A stretch of DNA of 64,000 bases from an uncultured Planctomycetales bacterium (GCA_964483535.1 CAZABZ010000001.1:8594-72593), one strand, 5' to 3'. Numbered from the stretch's first letter, positions 5,163 to 29,500 are shown. Numbers and translations: made by a program. Notes: generated by a model not told the origin, from the letters alone.

Positions 5163-5519
5163 TTAACCGCCCCACCATTTATCCTTAAATTGCTCGGAAC
5201 AATGATCGGTGATGTATTGATAAATCTTGTCCTTGTCCGGGTCCAAAATTTTGTCAAAAGACATCCCATAAACATACCTCCCTTGGTCTTCCTCAACCCA
5301 GGGCAAGCTGACCTCAAGTTTAATGGGATCGAATTTGTCCTCAAGGGCCAACGACATATCCACGGACCGCTCTCGAGGTAACCGTTTGTCAAAAGACGCG
5401 CGCATCCCTTTTAAGTTCAGGTCCTCGATGATACACTGGCTGGATTCCTGCGTTCCGGGCAGCCAGACCTTTGCTTCCCTTTTGACCTGCCAGCGAGGCA
5501 GTTGTCTGCGTTCATCCAT
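5163..5519 (-). CDS. PilZ-domain protein (putative c-di-GMP receptor), 118 aa
   Basis: ATG at 5517-5519 is preceded by AAAGGAGAGAAAA, a strong RBS. The N-terminal ERRQLPR matches the PilZ RxxxR motif. DLNLKG about 24 residues later matches the (D/N)x(S/N)xxG motif. The start is only 30 bp downstream of the giant-gene stop. Confidence 0.6.
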   Translation of the reverse strand: MDERRQLPRWQVKREAKVWLPGTQESSQCIIEDLNLKGMRASFDKRLPRERSVDMSLALEDKFDPIKLEVSLPWVEEDQGRYVYGMSFDKILDPDKDKIYQYITDHCSEQFKDKWWGG

Positions 5520-11500: not shown

Positions 11501-14500
11501 CACCGCCCTGACAAACTCCCTTTCCGGCCCCAACCTTCTGCCATGAAATCTCTTTACGCTGTAATAGGTGTGCCACGCCAGATTGGCCGCAAACATAGCT
11601 TCCAGCGACTGTATCCTATGCTCGGCATCATTGGCAGGAGCGTTACGTTTCTTCAAGTTCAAAGCGTTGAGCGCCACCTCAGACAGGTCCAGGTTAATGT
11701 CATTCTTTTTTATGAATGGATCGGTACACGCATCTTTAAAATCAGCGACATCAGGATAAAGGACATGCGCCTTGGCCTTAACCTTGGCGCCAATCTTCGA
11801 GTTTGACAACGCCTCATTGAGCCATTCCGCAGACAATTTAGTCGCATCCAGCGTGGCATCCACATAATCCGCCGGCGTATAGCTGTCAAAATCCTGGTTA
11901 CGCATGAAAAGGTCGTGGTCACGTGTATCGTCCCCCTGGAAAATACAGCTATATCCGTCCTTTATTTCCAACGTCCCCCGCAATGAAAACGGAATATTAT
12001 TTTTTACTTTATCAAATAACGAAAAGATATCAAAAATCACGGAGTCGCTGGAAACGGGATTAATCATAAAACCGGCACTCTTGTCTTCTTTCCATGCCTT
12101 AGACTTCACATAAGCCTCGATCTTCTTCCCGATACCCGCCGCCCCCCTTGTAAATTCGACAATTTCACTCTTCTTGTCAGGGTTAAACGAAATGTAATTA
12201 AAGCGTTTCTGCAAAATATCCTCTGTCCTTGCTTTGGGGTAAGGACTGTCCCACAACAGCAACATCTGGTAAATAACTTCCCGGGTGTACTTTTTGTGCT
12301 TGCGTAGAAGGTCCAATATCTCCCTCAATGTTTCCGGTATATCATTGGTTTTTTCAAAATAGTCATACCAGCGACAGATCATGGCGACTAACGCCTTATA
12401 TTCTACGGGGTCCCCTCCGCTGGTAATATCAATGCTCCCATCACGAGCACATTGCCATGGCCTTCCCTTGTTTTGCGGGTATTTCTTATTAAAAACATCC
12501 TCTGGCAAATCATGGATCACTTGCTCGTGTTTGATATTGACAACACGGAAAAGTTTCCTGAATTCTGCGACCAGGCCGTCAAAATACGGACTGGTAATAT
12601 TTGCCCCCCTCAGATAGGCCTGCAAAAATTCCCCATCTTTATTGATGTCGTTATAATGTGTTTCCTTGATGATCGCGATCGTCATGATAATATCCAAAAT
12701 CTCCCGGCCTGTAGGTTTGGTCCCCCTATCTTCTAAAAATTTCAAACGTTCCAATTTTTGTGAAATACCTACTTCGGTCCCGACTTGGCGGCAGCCCCTG
12801 TTACGAGTAAGAATATGGAAAAAACGTTGCGCGTACAGCCGCGCCAGGCAAGGATCCAGAAACTCGAGGAGTTCCTGCGGAACAAGGCTGCGATCAAACG
12901 CCTTTTCTACAATAAAATAAGTGTCTTCAATCAACGCGCCGGCGGCCGCCAATTTTTTATGCGCGATCGACCTTGGATTATCTAATAAATATCGAAGCGC
13001 CAGACGATAAAAAATGACCGCCCTCATCGATGAGAAATATTGTTCGGCATTACCTTCTAAATAACGCTTCAAATTGATCTCCAGCACATTCGCGAAACGG
13101 TACCCGTAATGAACGGCCCAGTTATCATCATAAACAAATGTCGCTTTAAACGAAAACAGACTGTCTGATCGGTTCTGTGGCAACGCCGGGACCACCTGGT
13201 ACCTCAAACAAATATTCACATTCCGTCCAACCCATAAAATCCGGATCATCGTGTTATAAAATTCTTCTTTCAGGGCTTGATCTTCCACGGATTTTTCGTG
13301 CCATTTCTCCCACAGGGCATCAATGACTTGCTCCATCCCTTTCCCCTGTATCCACTGTATCCACCCTATTGGAAGATCCTCCTCTTTTCGCGGCGGAAAT
13401 AAACATACACTGACCGCTTTAGAGAACTCTTCCTTTGATTTAAAAAGATAACCAAAGCTATCTTCCTGGGGCGTAAAATATCTTTCAAAACAACGCTTGA
13501 CGCGGTCTTCTAATTTCTTCCTCTCGCTTTTATTTATTTGCCCGACCAAATACCAGGCCGGGATCTTTTCAGGCTCTTTTTTCGGCGATATAACGCAAGC
13601 TTTGTCTGCGGCGGCTTTATCTTTCACTGCCGAAGATTTTCCATTTGCCAACGAGCCAAACTTCTTTTGCCAGCTGCGGACAAAAATGGCAGCTATCAAG
13701 CTGACGCCAACTAAAACCATGGTCCACTTGAGCATCCCCCCAAGCCACATAGACGCGATGCTCACCGCATTGATCGCCAACAATGCCGGCATTGCACACA
13801 AACCTTTCGCATCATTCGTGAAGTCCACTAACTGACGAAAGATGTTGACACTGTTCGGCGCGTCTTTCCCTTCAATGGGACAAGAGCGGTCATGAAGAAC
13901 GTCCATCTGAATGCGGGCCCCTGCCTCGATCGTCTCATCCTCTTTTTGCATCTCGCTTAACTGTGCCAGCCTGTCAGACCCTTCAAACTCGGCTAACAAA
14001 CCAGCCAAAGGCGCATTCTTATTTTCAATGAAACCTCTGACGTGTCTGTCCAAAAGACGCGACATGGCTGAAGGATATCTTCCCTGCCAGTACGCGCGTG
14101 TAAAAAGACCTTTGAGTTGCGATGGGTTAAACGCCTGGCCATTATGAATAAATACCGTGCGTATCCCCCGATCAAAGCCATAAAGTTCCACCCCAAAATC
14201 ACCATGCACAAACTTTTCGGTCTCTATCGAAGCACGCTTCTGTAAAGCCTTAAACATTCTGCTAACCCAGAACACGATAACCTCATGAAGCATCTCCCGT
14301 GTTTCCTTCTGTTGTGGGCAAATGCTTTCTAACGCTTCCGGTAAAGAACGGCTGCTGAAATCGTCCACCCATTTCTCAAACTGTTCTTCAAGGCTCCCCC
14401 CGAAAATCTTTTCCGAAAAGCGTTCTTTCAAGAACCAATCCTCTCCACGCAAGTCAATAAAAGCATGTATGAAATCCTTCGTCCGCTCATCATATGCCGC

Positions 14501-17500
14501 ATAACTCGGCACCAAAGATAAACCATAAAAAATCATCTGGATATCTGATTCGACTGGATCTTTGAACCCACGCGTACGGTCCTCAAAACGTACAGCCGTC
14601 CTGTCCGCGTCATCATGAAGACGGTAACGAAGATCGGAGAAATCCAAGAATGCTTCCGCATTGGTGTATTTGCCCTCAAAAATGTAAATAACATCTTTTT
14701 CAAAAACAATCGGAATATCTTGTCTTTCCGTCTGTCCACGGATATAAGCATTTTTGATCACATACTCCTGACGTTTGGAACCGGAGGCGCGAAATGCGTG
14801 TAAGTTCCTTAAAAGATCTAGGGCCAAAGTAAAATCAAAAAAGCCCTCTTCTCCCAGATACTCCTGACCTGGCTTAAGATTGCCGACCATGTCACCTAAA
14901 AGCGCTCTTTCCTGTGGGGTCAAAACCAACGGTCCGTTGGCCGGGTCATGGGCTACAACTTTCTGCACAGCTTCCCGCCACTGGCGGTCTCTAAGGAACC
15001 AGTCCAGCTCAATGATCTTCACACGTGCGGTATCCGCTAGAAACTTCTCAATGAGTTTGGCAATGATCGTCTTCCCTGAACCTGAACCGCCGTCAATGGT
15101 GACAATAGGAGCATTACCTTCAACCCCGCGGGCAAGACGTTCACGGATATGTCTTACGATCGAAATGACAAACGGTGTCATACATGACTGAAGATAGTCA
15201 AGGGAAGTAGCAAATATCGGGTTGCCTGTCTTGGGATCTATCGGAGGATGATTATAATAACCGTGAGCTAAAGCAAACTCATGAGCAGGCAAAGGAATAA
15301 CCGCCGGGTCCTGTCCGTAACGATAACGTGTCGAAGAAATCGACAAATCGATCTGTGGATGTTTCAACAACAGTACCGGCAAATCCATTTGCCCGCCATA
15401 AAGGGCCTTGCCCTGTTGATTATACAACTCCATTCTTTCCTGCGTTATGCCCAGGCCAAACTTGCCGCGTTGTATCCAGCCAATACTAATACGATGCCGC
15501 GGATCTATCCTGTCTTCGTTTTTCTTTAAAATACTGTAAAACAGCTCGTAATAGTGAACGACCCGCTTTTCGTTCTCGATCCCAAGCAAATACACGAAAT
15601 GGACCCGTCGGCCACGGTTATAATCCATCAATTGCAGCATCTCTTCAAATCCTTCTCGCTCATTATCCGGCTCACTGCCAAAATCAGTATAACGTACCAG
15701 AGGCCCCATCCCGTCGATGGACAATTTGGTCATCATATGTCGATGTTCGGTGGAAACCTTCTCTGAGCGATAAACCTTCTTGTAACTGATACGACCCTGC
15801 ACCCTGATGGCCACAAAATCAAGTCCGAGTAAAGCAATAGCAAATAACGACGGTATCAAATGCCCATGGTTGGGAGGATTGCCGGCAATTGGCATAAGCC
15901 CTATCTTGATTTCCTGATCAGGATCGGCATCCTCCAGCGCCACCGGCCCATCATCCTCGATAGAATATCTTAATAATTTCGCGCGCTTAAACGGATTTGT
16001 GACCTTGCGACGAACATTTTCTTCAATCATCCCGAACACAGTCTCATAAGCTCTGAGGATCCTACTATTGAGGAACTTGTTGCTGCGATCACGGATCTGC
16101 GGGTCCGCTTTAATTTGCTGGTCAACAACATTGGCCAGCACTCCTTGCACGGCCTTAATCGCTGTAACATGGCGGGTTGCGGGATCCTGACCACGTTTGC
16201 CTTCAAGCCACCGGCGCAAAATAACTTCACGGGCAGAATTCTGCTCTTCAGTGAGATTAAATTCTTTACCGTGTGTGGCTAAGGCGCGAATTTCATGTCC
16301 AAGACTTAACGCTGTTTCAAGGCGGGTGCTATAAGCGGGATAATAGGTGCTGGCCCAAAGGTATTCCAGGCCATCTTCGATAGTAGACGTGGCCAAGAAC
16401 CCTTTAAAAGGCGCGCCTTTTAACAGGCCTGCCCTTCCCATCCAACGCAGTTTGGCCGCAGCCTGGCTGTCGCCAGTTTCTTCAAGGCCGCGGGCCATCA
16501 GTTCCCACATCTCCTCGGGGATGTCCGTCACCTTGCTCCGATCTAACTGTGTGAACTCATCCGCCACGATCTTCTCATAAGGAATGTCCCTCATTTCTAA
16601 AGGCATAATGGCCTCGGGCAGACGGCGGGTGGGGTCTTTTTTGCTTGAGGATGGCAAATTGTCTTTGGTCTGACATTGTGTCAGAAAATCATGAAGGAAA
16701 TGTTTCTTAAAACTCGCAACATACGCCAACTTTCTCTCTGCATCTGTAAGTTTATTCGCTTTGGCATATCTCTTGGATTCTTTCACAACCAATTGATAAA
16801 GCTCTTGCAATCCTTGAATGGTATATTCCGATTTTATCCTTCCATCAGCATTTAAATATTTAGCTAAGAATTTCTTCCTTTCAGTAGGGATATGATAACC
16901 ATAGCTTGCAGTTGTCATAATTCCGTCTTCTTCCAACACATCACCGTCAGAAACAAACAATGCGTTCTTGTCCCCATCAATAACAACTTTTGATCCTTCC
17001 TTAAGTTTCAGGCCGTCTTTCAAAACAATTCCCTGCCCCGCTCCTGTTAATTGCCACTTAGCAACAGCAAGATTAATTAAAGAAGGAATGCCATCCAGAC
17101 GAGTCAAGTCAGCTTCATGAGAAGAACTATTGCCATAAGTCGTAATCAGGCCTGCTTTGGGATAATCAAACATCACCTCTAAGACCTGCTCTTGATTGCC
17201 TTCGTGCGCAAGAAAAATAACCGGCTTGTTTTCACTCATCAGCTTACGGGCTTTATTAATATTCCAAACAAGATATCCTTGCATAGCCCCGGAGGTTGAA
17301 GCTTCGCCTTGAGCAAGCCTCTTGGCCTTAACGCCTTTTTTAACTTTATATATTCTTCTCACTCCTAATTTATCTTGTAGTTTTTCAATCCGTGGAATGG
17401 CGCGGGCCTCTGAAATCTTACCTTGAGCTAATTGCTCTTTGATATAGGCGATTTCCGCTTGTGGAGCAAAATTTATGTTTCGAGTTTGCAAGAAATAAAT

Positions 17501-20500
17501 CTTCCCGCCATTCACAACAAACTCAACTTCCTGTGGGCCGACTGCTTCCTCTAACTTTTTGCGTACCGCAAGAAGTTGGCGATAAATACGCGGTGCTGTC
17601 TGCGCCAATTTATTAATATCCTGCCCCTTCCGTCCGCCAGTCATCAATTCCTCACCTTTGGCATTTTCAAGATACTGTCCAAATAAAACTTTTTCATTCG
17701 TATTGGGATTACGGGTTGAAAAAACTCCCACGGCATAAAAAGGCCGTGAAGGACCTTTCCCGCTTATCCACAACTGAATAATAATTGGCAGGTCATACGC
17801 CTCCCCCAAACCTTCTCTGCGACGGTAATCTTTAGCCTTCTCTGAATACCATGCTTGCGCAACTTCACGAATAGCGACTAAAAGATCATTTGTGTTGATT
17901 ATGGTTTTAAGAACGCCGGGCATTGATCTCTTGGGATTACTGCGAACCGAATAAGAAACTGATAAATCATCGGACACTCCCGCTTTATGTAATTCTTTAA
18001 AAATCAAAGCCATAAAATCTTCTGCCTTTATTTGGGAAGACTCTATGATAATTTTCACCAAATCTTCAGAAAGAACTATGCCCGATGGATATGGAAGCCC
18101 CAGCTGATCAAGGATTAAAAATCCCGCTTCCTTATTACCCATCTGAGGCCTATAACATCCTTTGCCTAACAGCCTTACACCAAGTTTCACTCTATTGGCA
18201 GCCAATTGTTCTGCTGAAAATATATGCGATTTTTTAGGAAATGAAATGGCCCGCACTAATCTATCTCTCGCTGCTAAATAAAGAGCAATGAAATCCTTAT
18301 ACTCGGCAGGGACCGAAAGACGCAAGCTGTAATCACCATACCCCCAGTGCTTTAATGCGCTCCTCTCGGGATGGGATTCTGATTTCTCCTCCATATAGGC
18401 CTGCGAAAGGTGAAAATATTGCTTTAAAACATCCAGCATGGGGTCTTGATCAATCCGTCTTTTAATGTTAAGCAACACGCGAGACTCTTCAAAGGTATCG
18501 AATTTATATATCGTATATTTTAAAAGGAAAGTTACAAACTTTGAATTCTTCTGAGAAGGGCCTAAGTAACGAGGCTCAGCATTGTCGCCTCTAAGAATCC
18601 TATCGACTCTATTTTCGAATCTCTGATATAAATCGTACAATTTTTCTGAATCAAGTCTTGGATTAATTTTTTGTGCCGCACGAAAAACAGAAGATAGCCG
18701 CTTCTCCGCCATTACTTTTTCTGGAGTCAATAATTGAGTATTGGCTGTGCCCTCAGCCGAGGTTGAATCCTTGATTATGTCCTGATAACGCTTGACCTGC
18801 GCAATAAAATCTTCAATAGTTCTTGCATTAAACCCGACAGCGGCAACTATTCCTTCCGGCATAGCCAGCACACCAGCCACCTTCGTTTCAAAAATCCCAG
18901 CCGCGCCGATAATGATAAGTGACTGATTCTCCCTGCGAATATCCATAAGTGAACTATTCTCTTCTGCCAACTTTGCCTGGACATCAGACCACTTCTTAAG
19001 AACCACTCCATCAACACCGAGTTTGACCGCTGCGTTGATGGTTTCAATGAACGACGGCTGGACGTCCGTTCCAATCTCAGCAAAGATAATTAGGGCCGGA
19101 TACTCAACACGAATCTTAACTATCTCATCGGCCGTTGGGACAAAGTCGATCATAGTGATAAAGCTAGCTCCTGCCATGGCCCCTTCGTAGATCTGGGCAA
19201 CGTTGGTCGCAAAATAACCGATAACAGCTGATGAGTTCTTCGTGCGAACGGCCTTTAGTACATCGATTATATCAACCGTTGGAATAAAATTATTGGCAAT
19301 CAAAATCTCTGCAAACTGTACTAATGTAGCTGCCTCCAGCCCCGCATAGCCCTTGCCGCCGGTGACGGTGTGCAGGCCGACTTCAATACGGGAAGCCATG
19401 ATAACAGCCTTGATATCATCTTTGGCTATAGCCCCCTCCTCTGGGACAACCTCATTCCCAACGGCCATCTGCATCAGCTTTCTCATCTGCACCCCAACAT
19501 CCCCAGAATCTCTGTGATCGAAATTCTTAATAGTTGCAACAGCCGCTGCATTATCAGACAACACCGGCGCAGAGATCGTGCGAGCATCGTTGACGATCCT
19601 CATAAATTCCTGATCCCCGTTGTCCTTCATGGCGAGGAAAAGAGGAGGAATATAAATAATGCTCGCGAGATTTCGTCCTTCGGGATTCCAATCGCCGGAG
19701 ACATTGCCTTCCCTTAACCCTGCGATAATTGGTTCACACCCTTTAACATGCTGTTGCGCATCCGCGCTGCTGCCTAAAAGAAGGACATCTTTCAGCCCGC
19801 GCTTTAACGCAATAGCGGCTAATTCCTTCAGCGCAACTTCCCCAGCTAAAGTAATAAATACAACTTTGCCATCTACGTCCTTGCCTATTATAGAGAAGGA
19901 CGCCTTTTTGGTTTGGATTTCCCAAGCTACGGCATTAGGTTCAAGGGCCGGGAATTTATACTCGATGGTGTCTGATACATCTTCACCCTTATTGTTAATG
20001 ACCACAACCCCGCCAACAGCAAAACGGATCTTTGAAATATCGCTGTCCCTGACTGGTTTGCTGTCCTCAATATCTACTTTTATAATGCCTGCGGTTGGGC
20101 CATCAATAACAAAGAAATAATAGGTATTAGTCAGAGAAACTACTTTATCAAGCCCGATACCGGGAGCTGTCTTAATAATCAATTTGCCGTTTTGAATAAA
20201 CATGGTCTGAGCTTCCCAGAAATTACCCTGATGACCATTGATAGCAAAAATGGCACCGGTTTTCTTGGCGAAGGCCTTTACAGACAAACCCGGGAACCGT
20301 CTAAATATTTTATTGCGCTCTTTGGCGATTTTAATCGTCTGGGCAAATCGGGCGAAGTCGTATCTTATGCCTTTCTTGCTGGTATATAATTTAACTACAT
20401 TCCCAGAAGGAATAACAACTTCACGGGCCCAAATAGCGCCTTCTTTAGACTGGGTGGTAAAGGTTGTAACATTTAATCCTTCTACGGCTTTAGTGCCAAT

Positions 20501-23500
20501 GATCCCGGCATAAGCAAAAATGGCCTTGATAAATTCATAACTATCCCCACTCAACCCTTCAATGACCTGCTGGGACCTAAGGCCAAGCCCTTTGACGTTT
20601 ACCTCAACAAGATTCTTGGCTAACTCTACGCGCTCTGCGGTCTTTAAACTATTCAAAAGCGTCAACGCATCTTCCCATGCCTGTTGAGGCACAACATTGA
20701 TGCCTTCAATACCACTCTTGCCTTCAAGGATCATATCTTGCTTGCGCAAGTTGGCGGCTATGCGGAACATTTCGCCAATATATGTTTTAATGTAATCTTT
20801 CTGCTCTTTGGACTGGAGTTGTTCATCTGTAATTGTGGTAGTTACGCTGACTCCCTTGACTTCCCCTGAAGCAATCAAATCTGCAAAGGCCTTATTGAAC
20901 ATGCCCTTGGTGCGCAATTGCGCCTGGGGCTTGGTCATATATACAATGGTCAGTGTACGGCCTTTCTGTATTAAGCCCTTTTCGAGCATTTCTTTCCTGC
21001 TCTTGTTGAAATTATCAAGGGTGAATTTCGATTCCTCTTCAAGTACAAAAGCCTCGTTGCTGAGCATCTTGTTAAGTACATCTTCTGAGATTATGCCTTC
21101 CTGTGCTTTGCTCTGGGCTATCTTACGTATGATCTGACGGATCAAATCCGCCTCAGAAGTGCCCACAGCCTCTTGAAGCGAAGCGCCTGCTTCAAGGGCG
21201 GCTTTAACTTCCTTAACATGTTCATCCTTGCTTATTTTTCTCCCGCCGCCTATTTCAACCTCAAATGCATTTTCTACTGCCGCTTCAAGAAGAGCTATTG
21301 TCAAGCGACCAACTCCACCGGAGATAATGATACGTAAAGGATTGTCTTTATTGCTTTTGGAACGAACAACGTCTGCCTTGGCAAAAAAATCCAAAATCTT
21401 ATCAAACACCTGTACAACATCAGCGCCAAGGACCATCAACTGACTGTTTTCATTAGCTAATAACTCAATGCTCTGCTCATCGGCGATATCATTAACAGCC
21501 ATCAACGAAACCATTCTTCTTAATGGCTCAATAGGATTAATTGCTCCCTTGTCCTTAGTCCCGTCTTTAGTCACATCAATCCCTACTTTAGCTAACTCGT
21601 TTTGAAGATATTTATCATCATCCGACAATTTTCCTGTTTTTATATCTTCTGCCACGCCTTCCATTATCTCCTCTATCCGAACTTTAGCTTTCGCTTTAAC
21701 ACGCTCAATTTCTTCCTGACCGACCACTTCAATTATTCCCGCCAATTCATCCATTAAATCCAGAAAAACAGATCCAAACTCTTCCACATAATGTTGCGCG
21801 CGTTTTGTCTCCTCATCTTGTCTCTCTGCATCAAATCGCTTCTTAGATTTAATCTTTAAAGCATACCCGACAGCTCTGCTGACCTGACCAACCTCATCTA
21901 CAATTTTTTGAATCCTTTCTACCCCCGGATTTTGATATCTAAATTCATACGCCATAAAGTTAGGATTGGCTTCCCCTAAAATGCCACCTTCCCTCAATTT
22001 CCCAACAATCTTTGCCCCTTCGTTAACAACTAACGGCCGAAATGGCCACTGATTAAACGGCATTAGTTTGTTTCTTTGAAAATATTGAATATTTTCTTTC
22101 ATTTCCGCCAAAGTTAAATATGGATCAAACATGATAAATCCAACATCCAACCCCAGGCCAAGGTCTTGAAGCGTTCTTAACGAAACAGCTATGTCATCAA
22201 ACTGCATCCCTCGTGAATACCTCTTAAATTGGCTAAGGCTTCCAGCCTCAACACCCATAAAAACTTTTACTAACCCTACCTGCTTTAAACGTATGAACAA
22301 TTTCTTCATTTCCTCATTTTGATTCCCCCTATCGTTACTTTTAAAAACAATATCCGGCCTAGTAAAAATACGGAACGTAAATTTAATCCCATATTTCTTC
22401 GACAATGCCTCAATGCCGTCAGCAATTTGATAAATCCTTGAAATATTCTCTTTGTTTCGGCCTCCAATAAACTCATCATCCGAGAACTCCACCTCAGTTA
22501 TTCCCTGAGACATAACCGATTCTAAGTTCTTCAGCACCCGCTCAACAGTAAACCCTTGCCAACTCGCCGTGTTTCCTTTTTGTACTACTTCTCCTGTCCT
22601 TCTAAAGGACGTTCTTGTGCAATAGGCACAACCTCCCCAAGGACATCCCCGGGAAGTTTGGACTTGAACATTGCCGCCATCCTTGACAATATCCTGATAC
22701 GAACCTACCGCAGGCATATAAGGTAACGTCTGAAGATCTATTGTTTCTCTTTTTGTGTCTACCCTTCTGTTAGTCGCCGGATCTAAGAAAACAAGATTTG
22801 AGACCTCTGAAAGAGAGGCCTTCCCTCTATTAAATTCCACTAATCCTCGTAAAGCAATTTCGCCCTCACCCCTCACAACAACACCTTGAGGATAAATTTC
22901 TAAGAACTTGTCTGGGAAATATGTGGGAAGTTGATTGCCAAAGACCACTAAGGTGTGTTTTGGATCAAAGCCTTGCCTGGCCATCAATTGAGACATAATA
23001 GCCTGCACTAATTCTATTGCCCCTGGTTGTACCGATAACCCTAACATATCCGGCTGATCATTAACGATTTCATCGACTATTCCTCGAATATCATCATAGC
23101 TTCTTGTCCATCGGCTTGATACATCCACCGTCCTTCCAAAATGGCCCTGAAGATCTCCTTTTAATGTTTCCAAAGATAAATTATTCCACGCGTTATAATG
23201 TGCCGGTGACCCAAGCCCAATTAATTTGACTTTGCTTACAATTTGGAAGGTAACAAATTTATTAAAGGCAGGGTGAACGCTGGTAACAACTCCGCTTGCG
23301 ATATTTTCGTTAAGCCAGTTCTTGAATGCTTGCAACATGTAACCGTTTTGGGCAATGATGCCCGCGGTAAGGGCGGCTACGTCATCGTTATCCATATTGG
23401 GATTAGCTAAAGATTGGAATTCATCGATCAATACAGCTTCAACCACAGCAGGTGGCGCGCGGCCTAAATGAGGACTTAAGGTAACTACATTGTTGATTGT

Positions 23501-26500
23501 GTCTGTTTCCGCAACGAAACCATTGGCTGTCTCTGCCACATTCAAGGTAAATTGCGCATCGCTTAAGCCAGCCTTGGCCGCGGCAGCTTCGATCGTGCTG
23601 CGAAGCTGGTCAACTTTTTCTGAAGTCATCTGACCTTCTATGGCTTCCACTGTTGCCTTACCGGCAACGATGGCGACCTCCATAGCCACCTTCGCTTCAT
23701 GCGTGGTGGTGACCTTGATGGGGAAGGGTTTCTTGCTCTCATTGGCTATTGTAAAACTGTGCCTGCTAAGCTTGGAAGCTATAATCACCCCAAGCATCAG
23801 CACCGCTGGTACAAACCAGATCGCGCCAAGAGAATAAAAGACAATTATTCCAACAGTGCTCAAGCCAAGAAGGGCCTGTCCAAAGCTCCACGCATAGGCG
23901 AGGACATAGGCCGCAATCCCAACCAGCGTCACTGTCGTAAACCAACTGGAACGAAAGAGCTTCGGCAGTAAATTTGCATCACCGTACTCTTCATCAACGA
24001 TATTGGTAGTATGAATAAACTTATAAACACCGTTGTACATATAACGCGCCTGATTGGCTGAGAGAGATAACGGTTTACTCTGGGCAATGCCCGCCAGTCG
24101 AGCAATCACAGATATATCCATTTTGTCTGCCGCACGCATTTCCCCAATCTTGTTGTAACGATTGAATTCCCCAAACATCTCATTCGCATGGACCATCAGG
24201 CCTTCCTCATAACCCCAACGGGCAAGGAACCGATCCAGCGCCTCACGGAACCAACGGTCAGATGTCACGCGCTTGTTTTCTGGGAGCCCTTCATTTACAT
24301 AATCAACAAAACGATCCAGGCTGGAACGTTCAATGGTTAGATCTGGCCTAACGATCGGATCAAATGAACGAAATTCATTGGCCGTGGAAGCATTTAAGCG
24401 AGCCACTGCCGTACGGATGACCTTTGTTGCACGTGCGATGAGGACTCCCTGAACAAGCCTAACCCCTCCCTTGAACACCACCGGAACCGCGAGTACGACC
24501 AGTGACGCAATCGGAGCAACCCAAAGAAGAGCGATTGCTATCAGCACCGATGCGGCAACACCCGTCCGCGCCCAATTAACACCAAGGGCCTTCTTTTGTG
24601 CCTCTGCATCATTTAAAGCTTTCTCCCAAGTCTTCTTAATGTCCTCATTAGCTTGACCCAAAATGCGCATCCTGAGCGCCTTGATATCATCACGCACGTT
24701 CACGCGTTCAGCTCCCATCAAAATATCGCGCCAAGCGCGGTATTGAGCGTAGAAGAAGAAAATTCCTGTATCAATGATTGCCATCGCAATCTTAATCGGC
24801 ATAGACCATATCGTTCCACGATATTGAATACGATGGTAAATTGCGCTGTAATCAGGGATCTTCTTGTCATAAATGTTATATGCCCATGGCCAAACTTTCA
24901 AAGCGCGACCAAGCCACGGACGAGACAGGTTCGGGATAACGCCTGGATTATAAACTTGAGGATAAATAAGCCAGCCCAAGATCATATTGAAGTAGAAGAT
25001 TGTCACCGCAAGGATCACTGGGTGAAAATTCACAAGGCACCCGATGATGATAACAAACGGAGCGGCCAAAATCATCCCATAGCGATCACCCTTGCCCTTA
25101 ACAACATCAATATATCGCTGGTTCATATACCAACCGCTGCGGTCTGTCGGAGGGAAGCACGGAACGCCCTGTGTTGCCCAGTCATTAATAGCATCCACAT
25201 AGTTCGGATAAAGCGAACCAAAAATCCCCACGAACCCAGGCTTAATGAACATGCGTTTAAGCAAGATCAGGGTCCCCATCGGCCAACCATAAATCTGATT
25301 GTAGAAATGGTGGGCTGACAAACTGATCGAATGCATAAAAAGATAGCTCATCGCAATGGCAATAATTGAAAGCGGCAAGCCATACCAAGGATTGATCTGG
25401 AGAACCATCAAAATAACAAATGTCAAAGTACCGATCATCCCAGGGACCTTGCGCAAGAAGAAATGGCGCATGCCAAGTGAGGTCAATTTGTAATGTACCG
25501 GGATTGGGCTAAGAAGCGATCGCAGCATCTCTTCATGCTGGAAGAGCTCGGTCACGTCAGCGGCATATTTGTATTCTGGTGTCATGTGATTGATACGACG
25601 GTGTGTCTTGTCCTGAATCATTTCCACATATGAACGATATCTAAGCTTCCCACCTTTTGATATAGCGCCCATACCCATCAGTGAATCTTCAGCCGCGGAT
25701 AAAAGCGGCCCATTCCCATCGCGGCCAGAACGCAGATCAACACCCGCAGCCTTAAACGGTGCGCGAACCTGAGCTGTCAAGCCCGAAACACTTGGGAATG
25801 GCTCGCCGAAGAACGAATCAAGTTCCATCTCCCACTTGCCATAAACTTCCAGCGAACCCATACGGTTCATCGCCATCTGAACAGGATGTGTCCAGGCAGA
25901 TTCCGCGAGGCCACCAGATCCGGAAGCCAACGTTGTTAACATATGCTCAGACCACAGCGGGAACAGACTACCAGTGAGTTTCGGATCCGCATCATACTCT
26001 GCAGTCACAAACGGTAAGAATTGCGCTTCTTCAAACGGGATACGGTTAGAGTTATCCTGACCAATCATATGCCTGGCCTGAGTCATTGCGCCTTTCAACT
26101 CCATCCAAGCCGCGTCCTTAACTGGCATGATCAACATATATCCGGATGGCTCAACAACGGAAACATTCGGTAGATATTTTGAATCTTCGGCCATGCCCGC
26201 TTGAGCAGGGCTAAAGCCGGCGGCCCAGGCACCAACCGGCTGATAATTGTATGCGAACTTTTCCGCAGCAAGTTCTTTATAATTCATTTCAGCTTGGATA
26301 AGATAACTATTTTCATCCTCCGTCAAGGCCTGACCATTGGACTGCTTTGTTTTGATTCCTTGATAAATATCATCCCAAAGATAATCTTCAGTATGATGAC
26401 GATAAGCTTGGAATATCTCGGCGTTACGTAAATTAATGTTCTTGATCGTATTTTCACGTACGCTGACCCAAAGCGTAAATGTTTGCATAAGCCCTTCCAA

Positions 26501-29500
26501 ACGCTTGGCTGTATCCGGACTTATTCCTTGCCTCTTTGGAGTTTCCTGTGGGTAAAGCTGGTTTAATATTTCTCTTTTAAGCTTCTTCCCATCAGCAGTA
26601 CTGGCCAGCTTTTGGAAGTCATCATCAGAAAATGTTACAAAACCTTGAGGCAGTAATTCTCTAATATTTTCATCTATCTCATTTGTTTTCAAATGGTTAA
26701 CGTAATTTTGGAATGGGTCTATGCTATTATTTAGCCAATCGACAGCGCCTCTAATGTCTTTAAACCTATCTGTGGATTTGCCTAATTTTTCTAATAACGG
26801 CTTGATTTTCTCTAATGATTTCCTAAATTCACCCTCCTGAAATTCAAAAGAACGTATTACTGCTAAGGCTTTCTGAACCTCTTCGTCAAATTTAATTTGG
26901 GGATTTTGAGGATCAATCTTACACCCTAACTTAACTAAAAACTCCAGATGTCGCCCATTCATAATACCGTTCCCTAATTGTACACTTGCCAAACAGGCGC
27001 GAACTTCATCCTCAATGGCTTGCAGGTTATCCGCCTTAATGAAATCATATCCTCTGCCCTGACGAATAATGCCTGTGATCCGATCCAAAGCTTCATCGCT
27101 TATGCCATATTTATCTTTCCAGAAATTCCGGAATTCAATATTGTGATTGTCATTATTCAAAAATATTGCTGCCGCATGACGAACGGTCTCGTAATTAACC
27201 AATAAGGATACGCCAGCATAAGTTCCATGCAAAAGTATCCGCGGCATATCGCTGAACCGTTCATACGGTGTTGTGCGTCCATTTGCGGTCGCCGGGATAT
27301 CGGTACGGAAAAATTTGTTAAGGAATTGACGTAGATTATGACGAGCTTCATGATTCAATTTTGTCAAATCACTGTGTGTCAGCGTGAAAGCCTTAAACTT
27401 AGCTTGCTGTGCAACGCTCAACATGGTCTTATTCTCCGCTACAAAACGGTCAATTAGCTGACCATAAATCTTCACTGCCACATCGCGACGGCCACCAAAA
27501 GCGTTATACGCAAATAAATTCTTGAGGCGACTGCGTTGCATCAAACGGTATCCCCAGAACGCGGCCGTAATTCCGCCAAGCATAACGGCACCGGGAATTC
27601 CAAGTCCGATATAACCAAGAACTCCGGCCAACGATGTCAACAATGCAAAACCAGCCTGATAACGGATATCTTCTTTCATGCCGCCAAGACTCTCCCCCTT
27701 AAGAATGCTCAACGCGACATATACATCATCATTGCTGCGAACCGTATACGCGCGGATGTCTTCGGCGAAATCTTTAGCAACGCGGTTGACTGAAAGATAA
27801 AACGTTGTCGAAAGGATCATGGCCCCGAACAGGATTGCCAACGCAAAACCCGGAACAGCCACCAACGCCGCACTCCCTACGCCCAAAGCCCCTAACATCA
27901 TCAGAAGTTTTGGCATAGTCAGGATCGCAACCGCGCCAACACTCAAACTCATATAGAACACTGCATTGCGCAGGATGCGACTGAACTCTTTTAAGCCTTC
28001 GATCATCAAGCCCGTTTCCTGCTGAGTCATATGTAACATTTCAGCCTGCCCGCGGATATAATCACGATCAATCAGGATCATTACCCATGTCTTAAAGATT
28101 GAAACACCCGCAGGGACGTTCCAGAAACGGCGATCAAAAAATAGACGGAAATAATTACCATACAAACGAAGTTTGGACATCGGATAGGTAATAAACGGCA
28201 GATTAAGCTTCTTCATCTCTTCGCGCTTCCAGCTCATGAGATATTTGTCCATGATCTGCTGAACAAACGCTTCATAAATCATAAAAATACGATCTACCGC
28301 AGATCCTGGTGGGTTTCCGTCAACGGTAATCCCATCATACTTAGTGGTCCTCCCATCCTTAGTGATCATCCCATACTTAGTGCGCACATCAAAAAGAACC
28401 TCAATGGCATCTGCCAGCTTGCTATAGAATTGATCATCCTTCAGCGTTCCCTCATTAACCTCATTCAGGATTTGATTCGCTTCAGCGACCGCAGCATCTG
28501 TATCAGCAAGAACATTACCAATCACGCCTGGATGTCCCATCTCTTGGAGAATCTGGTGCAAAATAGCCTTTTGCGTAATCGTAGTCTCCGCCAACATCCG
28601 ACGAGCATCGGCAAGTGTTAGCCCCTGAGCACGCAGATCATGACCTCTCAAGAAATACCGATCCAAATCATCCGGCAAGAAAACCGGACGATGCTGAACA
28701 CGTTTGGATTTCACCCCACAATAGAACGTGTCATACATAACCTGAGCGATATAACGGAAGAAGCGGTCATGTCCTCTGACAATCTCATGGAAGCGACTCG
28801 GCTCTGCTTTAACCTTCTCTGCCCAGCGATTGACCAGTGTCGGACGGGTATAGGCTGTTTCCTGTTCAACCATGCGGACCGTCACATATTCTTCCAGCGG
28901 GATCTCAACATTCCCAAATATCGTCTTACGGCCATCGGCTTCGGTCACGACGTGGAACTTGCGGATCTTAATCGTGATAACCCCATTGGGGGCCAATCGA
29001 AACGCATTCTTGCCTCTCATTTCAATATAACGGCGAACAATCTCTTCGTTAATAAGGTCCCTCTTCATACGAATAGTCACCGCCATCTTCGGAGCATCCG
29101 TTGGCCGGCGTAACAAACCGCCAATATAACGTGTCATCTTGGTAAGATATCCATCATAACGGCTCTGGGTATGAATAAGCGGCTGAGCACCAGCGAGCTC
29201 ACCTATAATATTGCGCACCGCATAAAGGCTTGGATGACGAATCTCCCAACGGCTATCAACTGCTGCCACCACATCGTCTGCAGAAATCGGCATATCATCA
29301 TTGGCTTCTGAGCTTTCAACCTTTGTAATGAGAGCATCAATAATGTCAAGAATAACCTCTTTGGTTGGACGTCCATTAACCAGAGGAAAATTCGCATTGT
29401 TCAAAATACCGCCATTAAGGAAGTTCCATGTCCCCGGAAAAGCATTAATGCCACGAACGAAATCCCTCACATTATTAGCGATGACATCTCTGCCCTCACG

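What the first reader, a model, noticed from the sequence alone, without database searches (positions are those of the whole stretch)
21962..23194. B12-binding plus radical SAM module with non-canonical Cx4Cx2C cluster inside a membrane giant
A Rossmann-like B12-binding stretch (DMLGLSVQPGA...VVVRGEGE) is followed by SRGCPWGGCAYC and a GVEAGS motif, the arrangement typical of class-B radical SAM methyltransferase-like enzymes. The cysteine spacing is Cx4Cx2C rather than the canonical Cx3Cx2C, confirmed codon by codon at 22619-22645. An oxygen-sensitive Fe-S/cobalamin enzyme domain embedded in a giant envelope protein is highly unusual. It implies either cytoplasmic localisation of this segment or a non-catalytic, degenerate role.
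Basis: partly seen in the sequence, partly recalled or inferred. Interest (0 to 1): 0.8.

Follow-up and report, generated by a model that had tools for sequence, protein, structure and literature searches.

The report
OxsB-like B12 radical-SAM module in giant
A stretch of a giant (about 22,000-residue) membrane protein is an intact copy of a vitamin-B12-dependent radical enzyme whose closest known relative, OxsB, reshapes nucleotides; its odd cysteine spacing is normal for that enzyme family, and such modules recur in giant proteins, so it is a real but fairly ordinary find.

Summary
Giant-ORF residues 13,586–14,143 (window 21,563–23,236, minus strand) form a discrete ~555-aa cobalamin-binding plus radical SAM module. 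Its cluster motif CPWGGCAYC lies at 22,619–22,645.

It is not a generic class-B methylase lookalike. Its closest characterised relative, by sequence (E 2.7e-40) and by predicted fold (pLDDT 93.7, TM 0.81), is OxsB. OxsB is the cobalamin-dependent ring-contraction enzyme of oxetanocin A biosynthesis, and its crystal structure shows the same Cx4Cx2C motif.

- **Active site:** most OxsB cofactor-binding motifs are conserved. The module's only three cysteines are the cluster ligands. A degenerate role is therefore unlikely.
- **Location:** positive-inside charge bias, and ATP-using domains in the same TM-free stretch, place the module in the cytoplasm.
- **Rarity:** embedding is not rare. Of the 150 best family representatives, 41 exceed 1,000 aa. 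A 2026 preprint lists radical SAM in 90 long Omnitrophota proteins.
- **Substrate:** unknown. Recurrent co-fusion with nucleotide kinases, UDPGP and, in the nearest relative, an HD domain hints at a nucleotide or sugar phosphate.

Verdict: new member of a known kind, moderate interest.

The parts
5549..63991 (-). Giant ORF, 19,480 aa within the window. The frame is still open at the window edge. The full product is 21,986 aa on the source contig.
21563..23236 (-). OxsB-like cobalamin-dependent radical SAM module (giant aa 13,586-14,143). It is the only segment shared with 22 other long proteins.
22745..23224 (-). Cobalamin-binding domain: five-stranded Rossmann fold plus beta-hairpin (giant aa 13,590-13,749).
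   Evidence: Pfam PF02310 at 32.7 bits; DSSP of the AF2 model
23027..23041 (-). GLSVQ, equivalent to the OxsB Gly182-x-Ser184-x-Asn186 cobalamin motif. Gln sits at the lower-axial position.
22859..22870 (-). GEGE, equivalent to the 'GE' cobalamin-positioning motif. Both Glu are invariant in 32 of 32 family members.
22025..22681 (-). Radical SAM partial (beta/alpha) barrel (giant aa 13,771-13,989).
   Evidence: Pfam PF04055 E 2.9e-6; AF2 model and Foldseek
22619..22645 (-). CPWGGCAYC, a Cx4Cx2C [4Fe-4S] ligand motif (C13783, C13788, C13791). It aligns with OxsB C313/C318/C321. These are the only Cys in the module.
22472..22483 (-). SDDE, equivalent to the OxsB 'GGE' motif Ala361-Asp362-Glu363. 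The Asp is invariant.
22238..22255 (-). GVEAGS, the ribose motif. Its Glu corresponds to OxsB Glu436.
22124..22141 (-). GFIMFD, equivalent to the GxIxGxxE motif (OxsB Ile474). The hexapeptide is identical in OxsB.
21563..22024 (-). C-terminal helical region of the module (giant aa 13,990-14,143). It corresponds to the extra helices and helix bundle of OxsB.
23774..23947 (-). Hydrophobic cluster of about 58 aa (roughly 2-3 TM helices) just upstream of the module. There are 7 K+R in the 40 aa after it and 2 in the 40 aa before.
20774..21109 (-). DUF218-like segment downstream of the module. The hit is weak, below the Pfam cut-off.
   Evidence: 21.9 bits; a firm DUF218 is co-fused in L007
19775..20257 (-). 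NAGPA-like (phosphodiester glycosidase) segment, just under the Pfam cut-off. A homologous piece sits next to the module in L011.
18737..19423 (-). Phosphate-binding-type TIM barrel (KDPG aldolase / IGPS / RPE-like fold). Homologous copies flank the module on both sides in L011.
16940..18010 (-). Pyruvate-phosphate-dikinase-like ATP-grasp plus phospho-histidine domain. It serves as an ATP-dependent cytoplasmic marker.
   Evidence: TIGR01828, 160 bits
15533..15916 (-). NadD-like nucleotidyltransferase with the motif GNPPNHGH. The profile hit is weak, and the segment is homologous to one in P0186.
14957..15109 (-). Uridine-kinase-like P-loop (GGSGSGKT). The profile hit is weak.
13673..13804 (-). 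Hydrophobic hairpin that ends the ~3,300-aa TM-free stretch containing the module.

Best explanation
Giant-ORF residues 13,586-14,143 are a catalytically competent, OxsB-clade, cobalamin-dependent radical SAM enzyme domain.

Shown:
- It has OxsB's Rossmann domain, partial barrel and helical region, but not OxsB's N-terminal domain.
- The three cluster cysteines keep OxsB's own Cx4Cx2C spacing.
- The SAM-binding motifs (GGE-equivalent, ribose Glu, alpha4a Arg/Lys, GxIxGxxE) and the cobalamin motifs (GxSx-polar, GG, GE) are conserved.

Inferred:
- The domain lies in a ~3,300-residue cytoplasmic loop of the polytopic giant, together with ATP-using domains. There it can receive SAM, cobalamin and low-potential electrons.
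- It would reductively cleave SAM at the [4Fe-4S] cluster to make a 5'-deoxyadenosyl radical. That radical would abstract a hydrogen atom from a small phosphorylated substrate.
- Cobalamin would act as in OxsB, as an electron sink or transient adduct. This fits the hydrophilic Gln under the corrin and the Arg after the Cys motif. Methyl donation looks less likely.

Most tentative: the substrate is a nucleotide or sugar phosphate handled by neighbouring domains. The product and its use are unknown.
For: Identity of the module:
- OxsB is the top PDB hit by sequence, E 2.7e-40 over 340 residues.
- The family profile matches OxsB at E 1.2e-71. The next best are MgmA at 4e-14 and TokK at 1e-7.
- The AF2 model has pLDDT 93.7 and pTM 0.91. 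Foldseek gives OxsB E ~1e-31, TM 0.81-0.82; other cobalamin radical SAM enzymes reach about 0.6.

Active site:
- Residue mapping onto published OxsB functional residues gives C313/C318/C321 = C13783/C13788/C13791, R323 = R, D362 = D, E436 = E, K448 = R and I474 = I.
- These columns are invariant or conservatively kept in 32 family members.
- The module has exactly three Cys, in a protein that is 0.2% Cys.
- The Asn186-equivalent column is hydrophilic, E or Q in 26 of 32. A 2026 review associates this with non-methylases.

Cytoplasmic side:
- K+R count is 7 in the 40 aa after the preceding TM cluster, against 2 before it.
- No convincing TM segment occurs between aa 13,407 and 16,729.
- That stretch holds a PPDK-like ATP-grasp (160 bits), a NadD-like nucleotidyltransferase and a Udk-like P-loop.

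Substrate hint, from domains on the same polypeptide in other module-bearing long proteins:
- Cytidylate kinase in L008 and P0214.
- Guanylate kinase plus DUF218 in L007.
- Uridine kinase/PRK in P0195.
- UDPGP in L008, P0169 and P0214.
- An HD domain in the closest relative, P0123.
- A phosphate-binding-type TIM barrel next to the module here and in L011.
- OxsB and AlsB both act on 2'-deoxyadenosine nucleotides.
Against: - No biochemical data exist for any member of this subfamily.
- Identity to OxsB is only about 21-30% (Foldseek reports 21%), so the reaction could differ.
- The OxsB cobalamin contacts His325-Lys326 are replaced by Ser-Phe and followed by an 11-residue insertion.
- OxsB's N-terminal domain is missing.
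- No OxsA-like HD domain and no second radical SAM domain was found in the 19,480 aa visible here.
- The Pfam Radical_SAM score is slightly below its gathering cut-off.
- Co-occurrence with nucleotide enzymes was not tested against the background frequency of such domains in giant proteins, which carry many kinases anyway.
- Topology rests on hydropathy and charge bias, not on a dedicated predictor. Predictions for such giants are known to be unreliable.
- Whether the organism has access to cobalamin is unknown.
Confidence: 0.65

Rival explanations
1. It is a conventional class-B (cobalamin-dependent) radical SAM methyltransferase. It would methylate an unactivated carbon or phosphorus of a glycan, lipid, peptide or small molecule, using methylcobalamin as the methyl donor.
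For: - Most cobalamin-dependent radical SAM enzymes are methylases.
- GenD1, an active C-methyltransferase, also has Cx4Cx2C.
- OxsB itself can form SAH and a methylated dAMP derivative in vitro.
- NCBIfam gives weak partial hits to methylase families: the MCR glutamine C-methyltransferase at 42 bits, and KedN5 and PhpK at about 31 bits.
Against: - All NCBIfam hits lie far below their equivalog cut-offs.
- OxsB is closer than any solved methylase by a wide margin: E 1e-40 against 3e-5, and TM 0.81 against about 0.6.
- The lower-axial position is hydrophilic Gln/Glu rather than the Trp/Leu seen in radical methylases.
- The residue two positions after the Cys motif is Arg, as in OxsB, not the Trp of TokK.
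Confidence: 0.2
2. The module is a degenerate, non-catalytic relic that serves only as a structural spacer in the giant protein.
For: - The Pfam Radical_SAM score is marginally below its gathering threshold.
- Two OxsB cobalamin-contact residues are not conserved.
- Giant proteins contain much divergent, unannotatable sequence.
Against: - Every cluster, SAM and core cobalamin motif residue is retained and matches the family consensus.
- Exactly the three ligand cysteines survive in a protein with 0.2% Cys.
- The model is very confident, pLDDT 93.7.
- The fused copies are 45-56% identical to free-standing enzymes of ordinary size and share their invariant columns.
Confidence: 0.04
3. The segment is extracytoplasmic, like most annotated domains of Omnitrophota giants, and acts on the envelope or on prey surfaces.
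For: - Published TMHMM-based maps place most domains of such giants outside the cell.
- A NAGPA-like glycosidase segment lies nearby, and a T4-lysozyme-like motif lies elsewhere in the protein.
Against: - Radical SAM chemistry needs SAM, a low-potential reductant and an intact O2-sensitive cluster. These are cytoplasmic resources (established knowledge).
- The positive-inside bias points the other way.
- The same TM-free stretch holds ATP-dependent PPDK-like, kinase-like and nucleotidyltransferase-like domains.
- The authors of the published maps themselves call their localisations unreliable.
Confidence: 0.03
4. The module does not function as part of a 22,000-aa polypeptide. The giant ORF would be processed proteolytically, or translated from internal starts, so the module acts as a free ~60-kDa enzyme. 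Less likely, the ORF is an assembly or gene-calling artefact.
For: - Free-standing homologs of 550-600 aa have the same boundaries as the module.
- The module behaves as a cassette in otherwise unrelated giants.
- Peptidase domains that might cleave giants have been proposed.
Against: - The ORF is free of all three stop codons for 58 kb.
- The locus was recovered in at least three independent assemblies, one of which has a 21,986-aa gene call.
- The module is embedded in long ORFs in many unrelated MAGs.
- No peptidase domain was detected in the window's ORF.
- This rival concerns only the physical form, not the chemistry, and is compatible with the best explanation.
Confidence: 0.08

Closest known systems
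OxsB (Bacillus megaterium; PDB 5UL2/5UL3/5UL4), the cobalamin-dependent radical SAM ring-contraction enzyme of oxetanocin A biosynthesis
   Same: - It is the best sequence and fold match (E 2.7e-40; TM 0.81).
- Both have a Rossmann cobalamin domain with a beta-hairpin, a partial barrel and a helical C-terminal region.
- Both share the Cx4Cx2C cluster motif and an Arg two residues after the third Cys.
- Both share an acidic GGE-equivalent, the ribose Glu, a basic alpha4a residue and the identical GFIMFD strand.
- Both have a hydrophilic lower-axial residue, Gln here and Asn in OxsB.
   Different: - The relationship is distant (Foldseek 21% identity).
- The module lacks OxsB's N-terminal domain.
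- His325-Lys326 are replaced by Ser-Phe, followed by an 11-residue insertion.
- No OxsA-type HD partner is found in the visible ORF.
- It is embedded in a ~22,000-aa membrane protein instead of being a 744-aa soluble enzyme.
- Its substrate and product are unknown.
AlsB (albucidin pathway), the only other characterised OxsB-type enzyme
   Same: According to the literature it has the same enzyme type and four-domain plan as OxsB and acts on 2'-dAMP. It works with a second radical SAM enzyme, AlsA. Some module-bearing giants (L008, P0195, P0122) also carry extra canonical radical SAM domains.
   Different: AlsB was not compared directly, because no sequence was available in the tools. The window's giant has no second radical SAM motif.
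GenD1 / GenK-type cobalamin-dependent radical SAM C-methyltransferases
   Same: They belong to the same cobalamin-dependent radical SAM class. GenD1 is reported to have a Cx4Cx2C motif and to be active.
   Different: They are methyl-transfer enzymes of aminoglycoside pathways. No specific similarity was detected here beyond the shared class.
Class 1 cobalamin-dependent radical SAM enzymes with solved structures (TsrM, TokK, CysS, MgmA/QCMT)
   Same: They share the two-domain core and base-off cobalamin architecture. Foldseek TM is 0.56-0.63.
   Different: They have the canonical Cx3Cx2C motif. Radical methylases among them have a hydrophobic residue under the corrin (Trp in TokK), whereas TsrM has Arg. 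Sequence similarity is much weaker, E 1e-7 to 4e-14 with the family profile.
Multi-enzyme giant proteins of Omnitrophota (West-Roberts et al. 2023 'Archaeovorins'; 2026 complete-genome preprint)
   Same: - It is a single ORF of more than 10,000 aa with many TM segments.
- It is largely Pfam-dark, with scattered enzyme domains including PPDK-like and helicase-like ones.
- Radical SAM (PF04055) is listed in 90 long proteins.
   Different: - The taxonomy of this window was not established.
- The published work lists radical SAM only as a Pfam count.
- The papers read here do not describe the OxsB-type identity, the Cx4Cx2C motif or the cassette-like recurrence of this module.

Membership tests
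Radical SAM superfamily | Three-Cys [4Fe-4S] motif (CX3CX2C or an accepted variant) in the loop after beta1 | tested here: met
   CPWGGCAYC lies at giant aa 13,783-13,791 and follows strand E185-188 of the model. It aligns with OxsB C313/C318/C321.
Radical SAM superfamily | [quoted passage not shown] | tested here: met
   SDD(E), GVEAGS, GFIMFD and KRYSRG align with OxsB 361-363, E436, I474 and K448. They are conserved in 32 family members.
Radical SAM superfamily | [quoted passage not shown] | tested here: met
   AF2 model with pLDDT 93.7. Foldseek finds radical SAM structures exclusively among its top hits.
Radical SAM superfamily | Pfam PF04055 at or above the gathering score | tested here: not met
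   28.0 bits against a cut-off of 29.5, E 2.9e-6. This is marginal. Relatives of the same module score 36-88 bits.
Radical SAM superfamily | Reductive cleavage of SAM to the 5'-deoxyadenosyl radical | not testable with these tools
   Requires anaerobic biochemistry.
Cobalamin-dependent radical SAM enzymes, class 1 (OxsB/TsrM/TokK/QCMT) | [quoted passage not shown] | tested here: met
   The model has strands E2-4, E38-40, E60-65, E92-96 and E115-117, plus a hairpin at E144-147/E154-156. The feature is described in PMC13331322. Pfam PF02310 scores 32.7 bits against a cut-off of 32.1.
Cobalamin-dependent radical SAM enzymes, class 1 (OxsB/TsrM/TokK/QCMT) | Cobalamin motifs: Gly-x-Ser-x-(lower-axial residue), GG and GE | tested here: met
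   G-L-S-V-Q, F-G-N and G-E-G-E are present. G, S, G and both E are invariant or nearly so.
Cobalamin-dependent radical SAM enzymes, class 1 (OxsB/TsrM/TokK/QCMT) | Actual binding of cobalamin (base-off, His-off) | not testable with these tools
   No cofactor modelling or biochemistry was available.
OxsB/AlsB clade | Closer to OxsB than to any other characterised enzyme, in both sequence and fold | tested here: met
   A rough neighbour-joining tree places OxsB as sister to the family (no bootstrap support).
OxsB/AlsB clade | Cx4Cx2C cluster motif | tested here: met
   It is present in 24 of 32 family members; 8 have reverted to Cx3Cx2C.
OxsB/AlsB clade | Arg two residues after the third Cys, pairing with the acidic GGE residue | tested here: met
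   R (C-T-R) and D250 of the query. R occurs in 22 of 32 and D/E in 29 of 32. The pairing geometry itself was not measured.
OxsB/AlsB clade | Cys-loop cobalamin contacts His325-Lys326 | tested here: not met
   Ser-Phe occupies these positions, followed by an 11-residue insertion.
OxsB/AlsB clade | Four-domain plan including the N-terminal domain I | tested here: not met
   Similarity to OxsB starts at OxsB residue ~137-166. Free-standing relatives start about 20-40 aa before the Rossmann domain.
OxsB/AlsB clade | Dedicated partner: HD phosphohydrolase (OxsA) or second radical SAM enzyme (AlsA) | tested here: not met
   No HD or second radical SAM motif or Pfam hit occurs in the 19,480 aa of the window. 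No conserved neighbour exists across lineages. An HD domain is present in the relative P0123. The 2,506 N-terminal residues outside the window were not seen.
OxsB/AlsB clade | Ring contraction of 2'-deoxyadenosine nucleotides | not testable with these tools
   Requires an enzyme assay.
Omnitrophota multi-enzyme giant proteins | Single ORF above 10,000 aa with multiple TM segments and scattered enzyme domains | tested here: met
Omnitrophota multi-enzyme giant proteins | SecA-DEAD-like helicase domain | tested here: inconclusive
   Only a ResIII hit at giant aa ~2,773-2,905 was found, 25.7 bits. The SecA_DEAD model did not hit.
Omnitrophota multi-enzyme giant proteins | Encoded in an Omnitrophota genome | not tested
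   The source contig was identified (JGI 3300041809 Ga0455670_0001368), but no marker-gene taxonomy was run. The closest module relatives come from MAGs labelled Omnitrophota or Planctomycetales.

The most novel reading that the evidence does not exclude
The giant protein would be a membrane-anchored assembly line for a radical-rearranged (oxetanocin-like) nucleotide or sugar-phosphate antimetabolite. The OxsB-type module would be its key step. It would be fed and processed by co-fused nucleotide kinases, nucleotidyltransferases, an HD phosphohydrolase (in relatives) and a phosphate-binding TIM barrel. The product would be used against prey, hosts or phages. On this reading, the large uncharacterised OxsB-like family, including free-standing copies next to TIR/SIR2 genes, is a widespread source of nucleoside-analogue chemistry.
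Probability: 0.1. Interest if true: 0.75.

Novelty: new member of a known kind. Interest (0 to 1): 0.38.

Why it matters
Only two OxsB-type enzymes have been characterised, OxsB and AlsB. Both make oxetane nucleoside antimetabolites.

This work shows that an intact OxsB-like module is a recurrent cassette in giant, mostly unannotatable membrane proteins. These come from Omnitrophota-type uncultured bacteria. The module is soluble, about 555 aa long and confidently modelled, so it could be expressed and assayed.

That gives a concrete experimental handle on a class of proteins whose function is essentially unknown. It also widens the sequence space in which to look for new cobalamin-dependent radical rearrangements.

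The finding corrects the impression that the Cx4Cx2C spacing or the fusion is anomalous. Both have clear precedent.

Tried and rejected
- **Conserved neighbours.** I compared the neighbours of free-standing homologs in 17 loci. Only within-genus synteny appeared (Accumulibacter, and one Bacteroidetes lineage). No cross-lineage partner and no OxsA-like HD gene was found.
- **Defence systems.** PADLOC models gave only a weak partial hit to candidate PDC-M51A, 30-44 bits. This reflects the shared B12/radical SAM class, not membership.
- **NDK-like domain.** By eye, a nucleoside-diphosphate-kinase-like domain follows the module in P0169 and others. Pfam NDK gives only E 0.07, so this is not claimed.
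- **HD or second radical SAM domain in the window's ORF.** None was found by Pfam or regex.
- **Source genome.** The genome-contig scan did not contain it; the best match was 55% identical. The source was found instead through an exact-protein look-up of the PilZ neighbour.
- **Neighbouring TIM-barrel module.** The homolog search returned a single hit in a Pfam-dark context. The fold assignment therefore rests on a two-sequence AF2 model of moderate confidence.
- **NCBIfam equivalog models** (ArsL, MCR glutamine methylase, BchE, HpnR and others). All hits lie far below their cut-offs, so none was used for naming.
- **Composition.** There is no GC anomaly at the module that would suggest recent insertion.
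Full report

Yes. The window holds one open reading frame on the minus strand, 5549..63991, of 19,480 codons. The frame is still open at the window edge. On the source contig (JGI 3300041809, Ga0455670_0001368, 115 kb) the product is called as 21,986 aa. The same locus occurs in at least two other assemblies.

Translating the finding's coordinates in this frame gives giant residues 13,600-14,010. This stretch contains DMLGLSVQPGA, VVVRGEGE, SRGCPWGGCAYC and GVEAGS. The cysteine codons lie at 22645-22643, 22630-22628 and 22621-22619. Pfam finds B12-binding at 32.7 bits (cut-off 32.1) followed by Radical_SAM at 28.0 bits (E 2.9e-6, cut-off 29.5).

**2. What is it?**

A search of 5.8 billion proteins gave a tight family of about 33 proteins. 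They are 32-56% identical over essentially the whole 521-aa query, and most are free-standing enzymes of 550-850 aa.

A profile of this family hits one solved structure far above all others. That is OxsB (5UL2-4), at E 1.2e-71 across the cobalamin and radical SAM domains. The next hits are MgmA/QCMT at 4e-14 and TokK at 1e-7. The window's segment alone hits OxsB at E 2.7e-40.

An AlphaFold2 model built on the family alignment is very confident, with pLDDT 93.7 and pTM 0.91. It shows three elements:
- a five-stranded Rossmann fold with a beta-hairpin;
- a partial beta/alpha barrel;
- a helical C-terminal region.

Foldseek against the PDB returns the three OxsB entries first (E ~1e-31, TM 0.81-0.82). 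CysS, MgmA, TokK and TsrM follow at TM ~0.56-0.63.

OxsB is the cobalamin-dependent radical SAM enzyme that contracts the deoxyribose ring of dAMP, dADP or dATP during oxetanocin A biosynthesis.

**3. The 'non-canonical' cysteine spacing**

Reviews of the OxsB structure state explicitly that OxsB has a CX4CX2C cluster-binding motif instead of CX3CX2C. The active methylase GenD1 is also reported to have Cx4Cx2C. RadicalSAM.org lists a megacluster with this motif.

- In the family alignment the three Cys are invariant. The spacing is Cx4Cx2C in 24 of 32 members and Cx3Cx2C in 8, an Accumulibacter-type subgroup.
- A sister group of free-standing bacterial and archaeal proteins also has Cx4Cx2C. 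More distant B12/radical SAM proteins have Cx3Cx2C. The neighbour-joining tree is rough and has no support values.

The spacing is therefore a trait of the lineage, not a lesion.

**4. Is the module intact?**

I mapped the published functional residues of OxsB onto the alignment and counted residues across the family.

| OxsB residue or motif | Window's module | Family conservation |
|---|---|---|
| Gly182-x-Ser184-x-Asn186 | G-L-S-V-Q | G and S in 31/32; lower-axial column E or Q in 26/32 |
| 'GE' motif | GEGE | both Glu in 32/32 |
| C313 / C318 / C321 | C13783 / C13788 / C13791 | 32/32 |
| Arg323 | Arg | 22/32 |
| Asp362-Glu363 ('GGE') | Asp-Asp | first Asp 32/32; second position Asp 28/32, Glu 1/32 |
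| Glu436 (ribose) | Glu of GVEAGS | 30/32, the rest Asp |
| Lys448 | Arg | R or K in 32/32 |
| Ile474 | Ile, within an identical GFIMFD | I or L in 32/32 |

Two features are not conserved. His325-Lys326 are Ser-Phe here, followed by an 11-residue insertion. OxsB's N-terminal domain is absent.

The module contains exactly three cysteines, all cluster ligands. There is no other Cys between giant residues 12,985 and 14,752, and the whole protein is only 0.2% Cys. This argues strongly against a degenerate role.

A 2026 review notes a pattern in the residue under the corrin. Radical methylases place a hydrophobic residue there, whereas the non-radical-methylating OxsB (Asn-water) and TsrM (Arg) have a hydrophilic one. 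The Gln/Glu found here fits the latter group. This is an inference, not a test.

**5. Where is it in the cell?**

Hydropathy shows clusters of TM-like segments at about aa 7,076-7,660, 11,328, 12,006-12,148, 12,846-13,010, 13,138-13,173 and 13,349-13,406. A long stretch without convincing TM segments then runs to a hairpin at 16,730-16,773.

The 40 residues after the 13,349-13,406 cluster have 7 K+R, against 2 in the 40 before it. By the positive-inside rule, the module side is cytoplasmic.

The same stretch contains, in order:
- a DUF218-like segment;
- a NAGPA-like segment;
- a phosphate-binding-type TIM barrel (AF2 pLDDT 76.7; KDPG aldolase/IGPS/RPE-like, target-normalised TM up to 0.75);
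- a PPDK-like ATP-grasp plus phospho-His domain (TIGR01828, 160 bits);
- a NadD-like nucleotidyltransferase motif;
- a uridine-kinase-like P-loop.

ATP-dependent domains in the same compartment support a cytoplasmic location. A dedicated topology predictor was not available, and the literature warns that such predictions are unreliable for giants.

**6. How unusual is the fusion?**

Not very.

- In reference genomes, the same module sits inside ORFs of at least 5,685 aa (L008), at least 4,363 aa (L011), and 2,222, 1,259 and 1,082 aa. These come from MAGs labelled Omnitrophota or Planctomycetales. It is free-standing in Bacteroidetes, Altiarchaeales, Acidobacteriota and others.
- An exhaustive profile search of 1.84 billion representatives found 2,153 proteins at E ≤ 1e-30. 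Of the best 150, all of which score higher than OxsB does, 41 are longer than 1,000 aa and 22 are longer than 2,000 aa, up to 7,176 aa.
- BLAST of the giant against 22 of these long proteins shows that only the module is shared (aa ~13,586-14,140), apart from one NadD-like piece. The module therefore behaves as a cassette in otherwise unrelated giants.
- One protein, P0122, carries three OxsB-like copies plus three canonical radical SAM motifs.
- A 2026 preprint on Omnitrophota lists radical SAM (PF04055) in 90 long proteins, out of 779 Pfam-positive proteins of 10,000 aa or more. The main text of the 2023 giant-gene preprint mentions neither radical SAM nor B12.

**7. What might it act on?**

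This is unknown. Gene neighbourhoods of free-standing homologs share no partner across lineages.

Domain co-residence gives a hint. Module-bearing long proteins contain:
- cytidylate kinase (L008 at 165 bits; P0214 at 90 bits);
- guanylate kinase plus DUF218 (L007);
- PRK/uridine kinase (P0195);
- UDPGP (L008, P0169, P0214);
- GHMP kinase (P0169) and histidine phosphatase (P0163);
- in the closest relative, P0123 (52.5% identical module), an HD domain at 33 bits against a cut-off of 22.

L011 places homologs of the window's NAGPA-like and TIM-barrel segments directly around the module, in a shuffled order. OxsB and AlsB act on deoxyadenosine nucleotides, and OxsB works with an HD phosphohydrolase. 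A nucleotide or sugar-phosphate substrate is therefore the most economical guess.

I did not test enrichment against the background. Giant proteins are rich in kinases in any case, so I treat this as a lead only.

**8. Verdict**

The two features that made it look exceptional both have clear precedent.
- The Cys spacing matches OxsB and GenD1.
- Embedding of a radical SAM domain in a giant protein is a catalogued, recurrent feature of Omnitrophota-type giants.

What this analysis adds:
- the specific assignment to the OxsB clade;
- evidence that the active site is intact;
- the likely cytoplasmic placement;
- the cassette-like recurrence of the module;
- the repeated association with nucleotide-handling domains.

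I rate it a new member of a known kind, of moderate interest.

Noticed in passing
window 63991-64000 and beyond (minus strand): The giant ORF's frame is open up to the window edge. On the source contig (JGI 3300041809 Ga0455670_0001368) the gene product is 21,986 aa, so about 2,500 N-terminal residues lie outside the window. The same locus is present in at least three independent assemblies.
   Followed up: partly
whole giant ORF, window 5549-63991 (-): Cysteine is strongly depleted: 37 Cys in 19,480 aa, and none in the first 6,599 residues. Most Cys cluster in aa ~16,270-18,305.
   Followed up: no
window ~8591-9124 and ~6191-6745 (-); giant aa ~18,290-18,467 and ~19,083-19,267: An internal duplication of about 180 aa, 59% identical, brackets the RelA/SpoT-like region near the C-terminus.
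   Followed up: partly
window ~38353-38416 (-); giant aa 8,526-8,547: A T4-lysozyme-like catalytic motif, HEGFRAWPYVDPNHKQMDIGYG, is present. A PDB sequence search of the surrounding 200 aa gives only sub-significant hits (E 0.13-0.7), but all six are T4-type or gp5 lysozymes. It may be an extracytoplasmic, cell-wall-degrading segment.
   Followed up: partly
window 18737-19423 (-); giant aa 14,857-15,085: A Pfam-dark segment folds as a phosphate-binding-type TIM barrel (KDPG aldolase / IGPS / RPE-like). Two homologous copies flank the OxsB-like module in the Omnitrophica locus L011. Only one other homolog, free-standing and 344 aa, was found.
   Followed up: yes
window 16940-18010 (-); giant aa 15,328-15,684: A pyruvate-phosphate-dikinase-like ATP-grasp plus phospho-histidine swivelling domain (TIGR01828 positions 200-506 of 865) has no detectable PEP/pyruvate barrel. 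This suggests a phosphotransfer module repurposed for another acceptor.
   Followed up: partly
window 7667-7930 (-); giant aa 18,688-18,775: A RelA/SpoT-like nucleotidyltransferase segment (26.4 bits, cut-off 27) lies near the C-terminus of the giant.
   Followed up: no
window 55277-55675 (-); giant aa ~2,773-2,905: A ResIII/DEAD-type helicase P-loop segment (25.7 bits) follows TPR repeats. It may correspond to the divergent SecA-DEAD-like domains described for Omnitrophota giants.
   Followed up: no
protein P0122 (5,727 aa), from the exhaustive search: A single long protein carries three OxsB-like modules (CAHGLCTFC, CPWGACTFC, CSWGRCAFC), three canonical Cx3Cx2C radical SAM motifs and an HD motif.
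   Followed up: partly
loci L003/L004/L013 (Bacteroidetes GWF2_33_16), gene at 10001-11662: A free-standing family member (P0027) lies about 1.3 kb from SEFIR/TIR-ankyrin and SIR2 genes, a defence-island-like neighbourhood. PADLOC gives only a weak hit to candidate PDC-M51A.
   Followed up: partly
loci L001/L015/L018 (Accumulibacter): In three Accumulibacter genomes the Cx3Cx2C-type family member follows four conserved genes with no Pfam hits and lies near transposase genes. This may be a mobile operon.
   Followed up: no
window 1068-4955 (-) and 5163-5519 (-): Downstream of the giant gene lie a PilZ-domain protein (118 aa) and a 1,295-aa Pfam-dark protein with an N-terminal signal-like hydrophobic segment. 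The N-terminal region of that protein resembles the N-termini of some module-bearing long proteins (P0174, P0163, P0214); this was judged by eye only.
   Followed up: no
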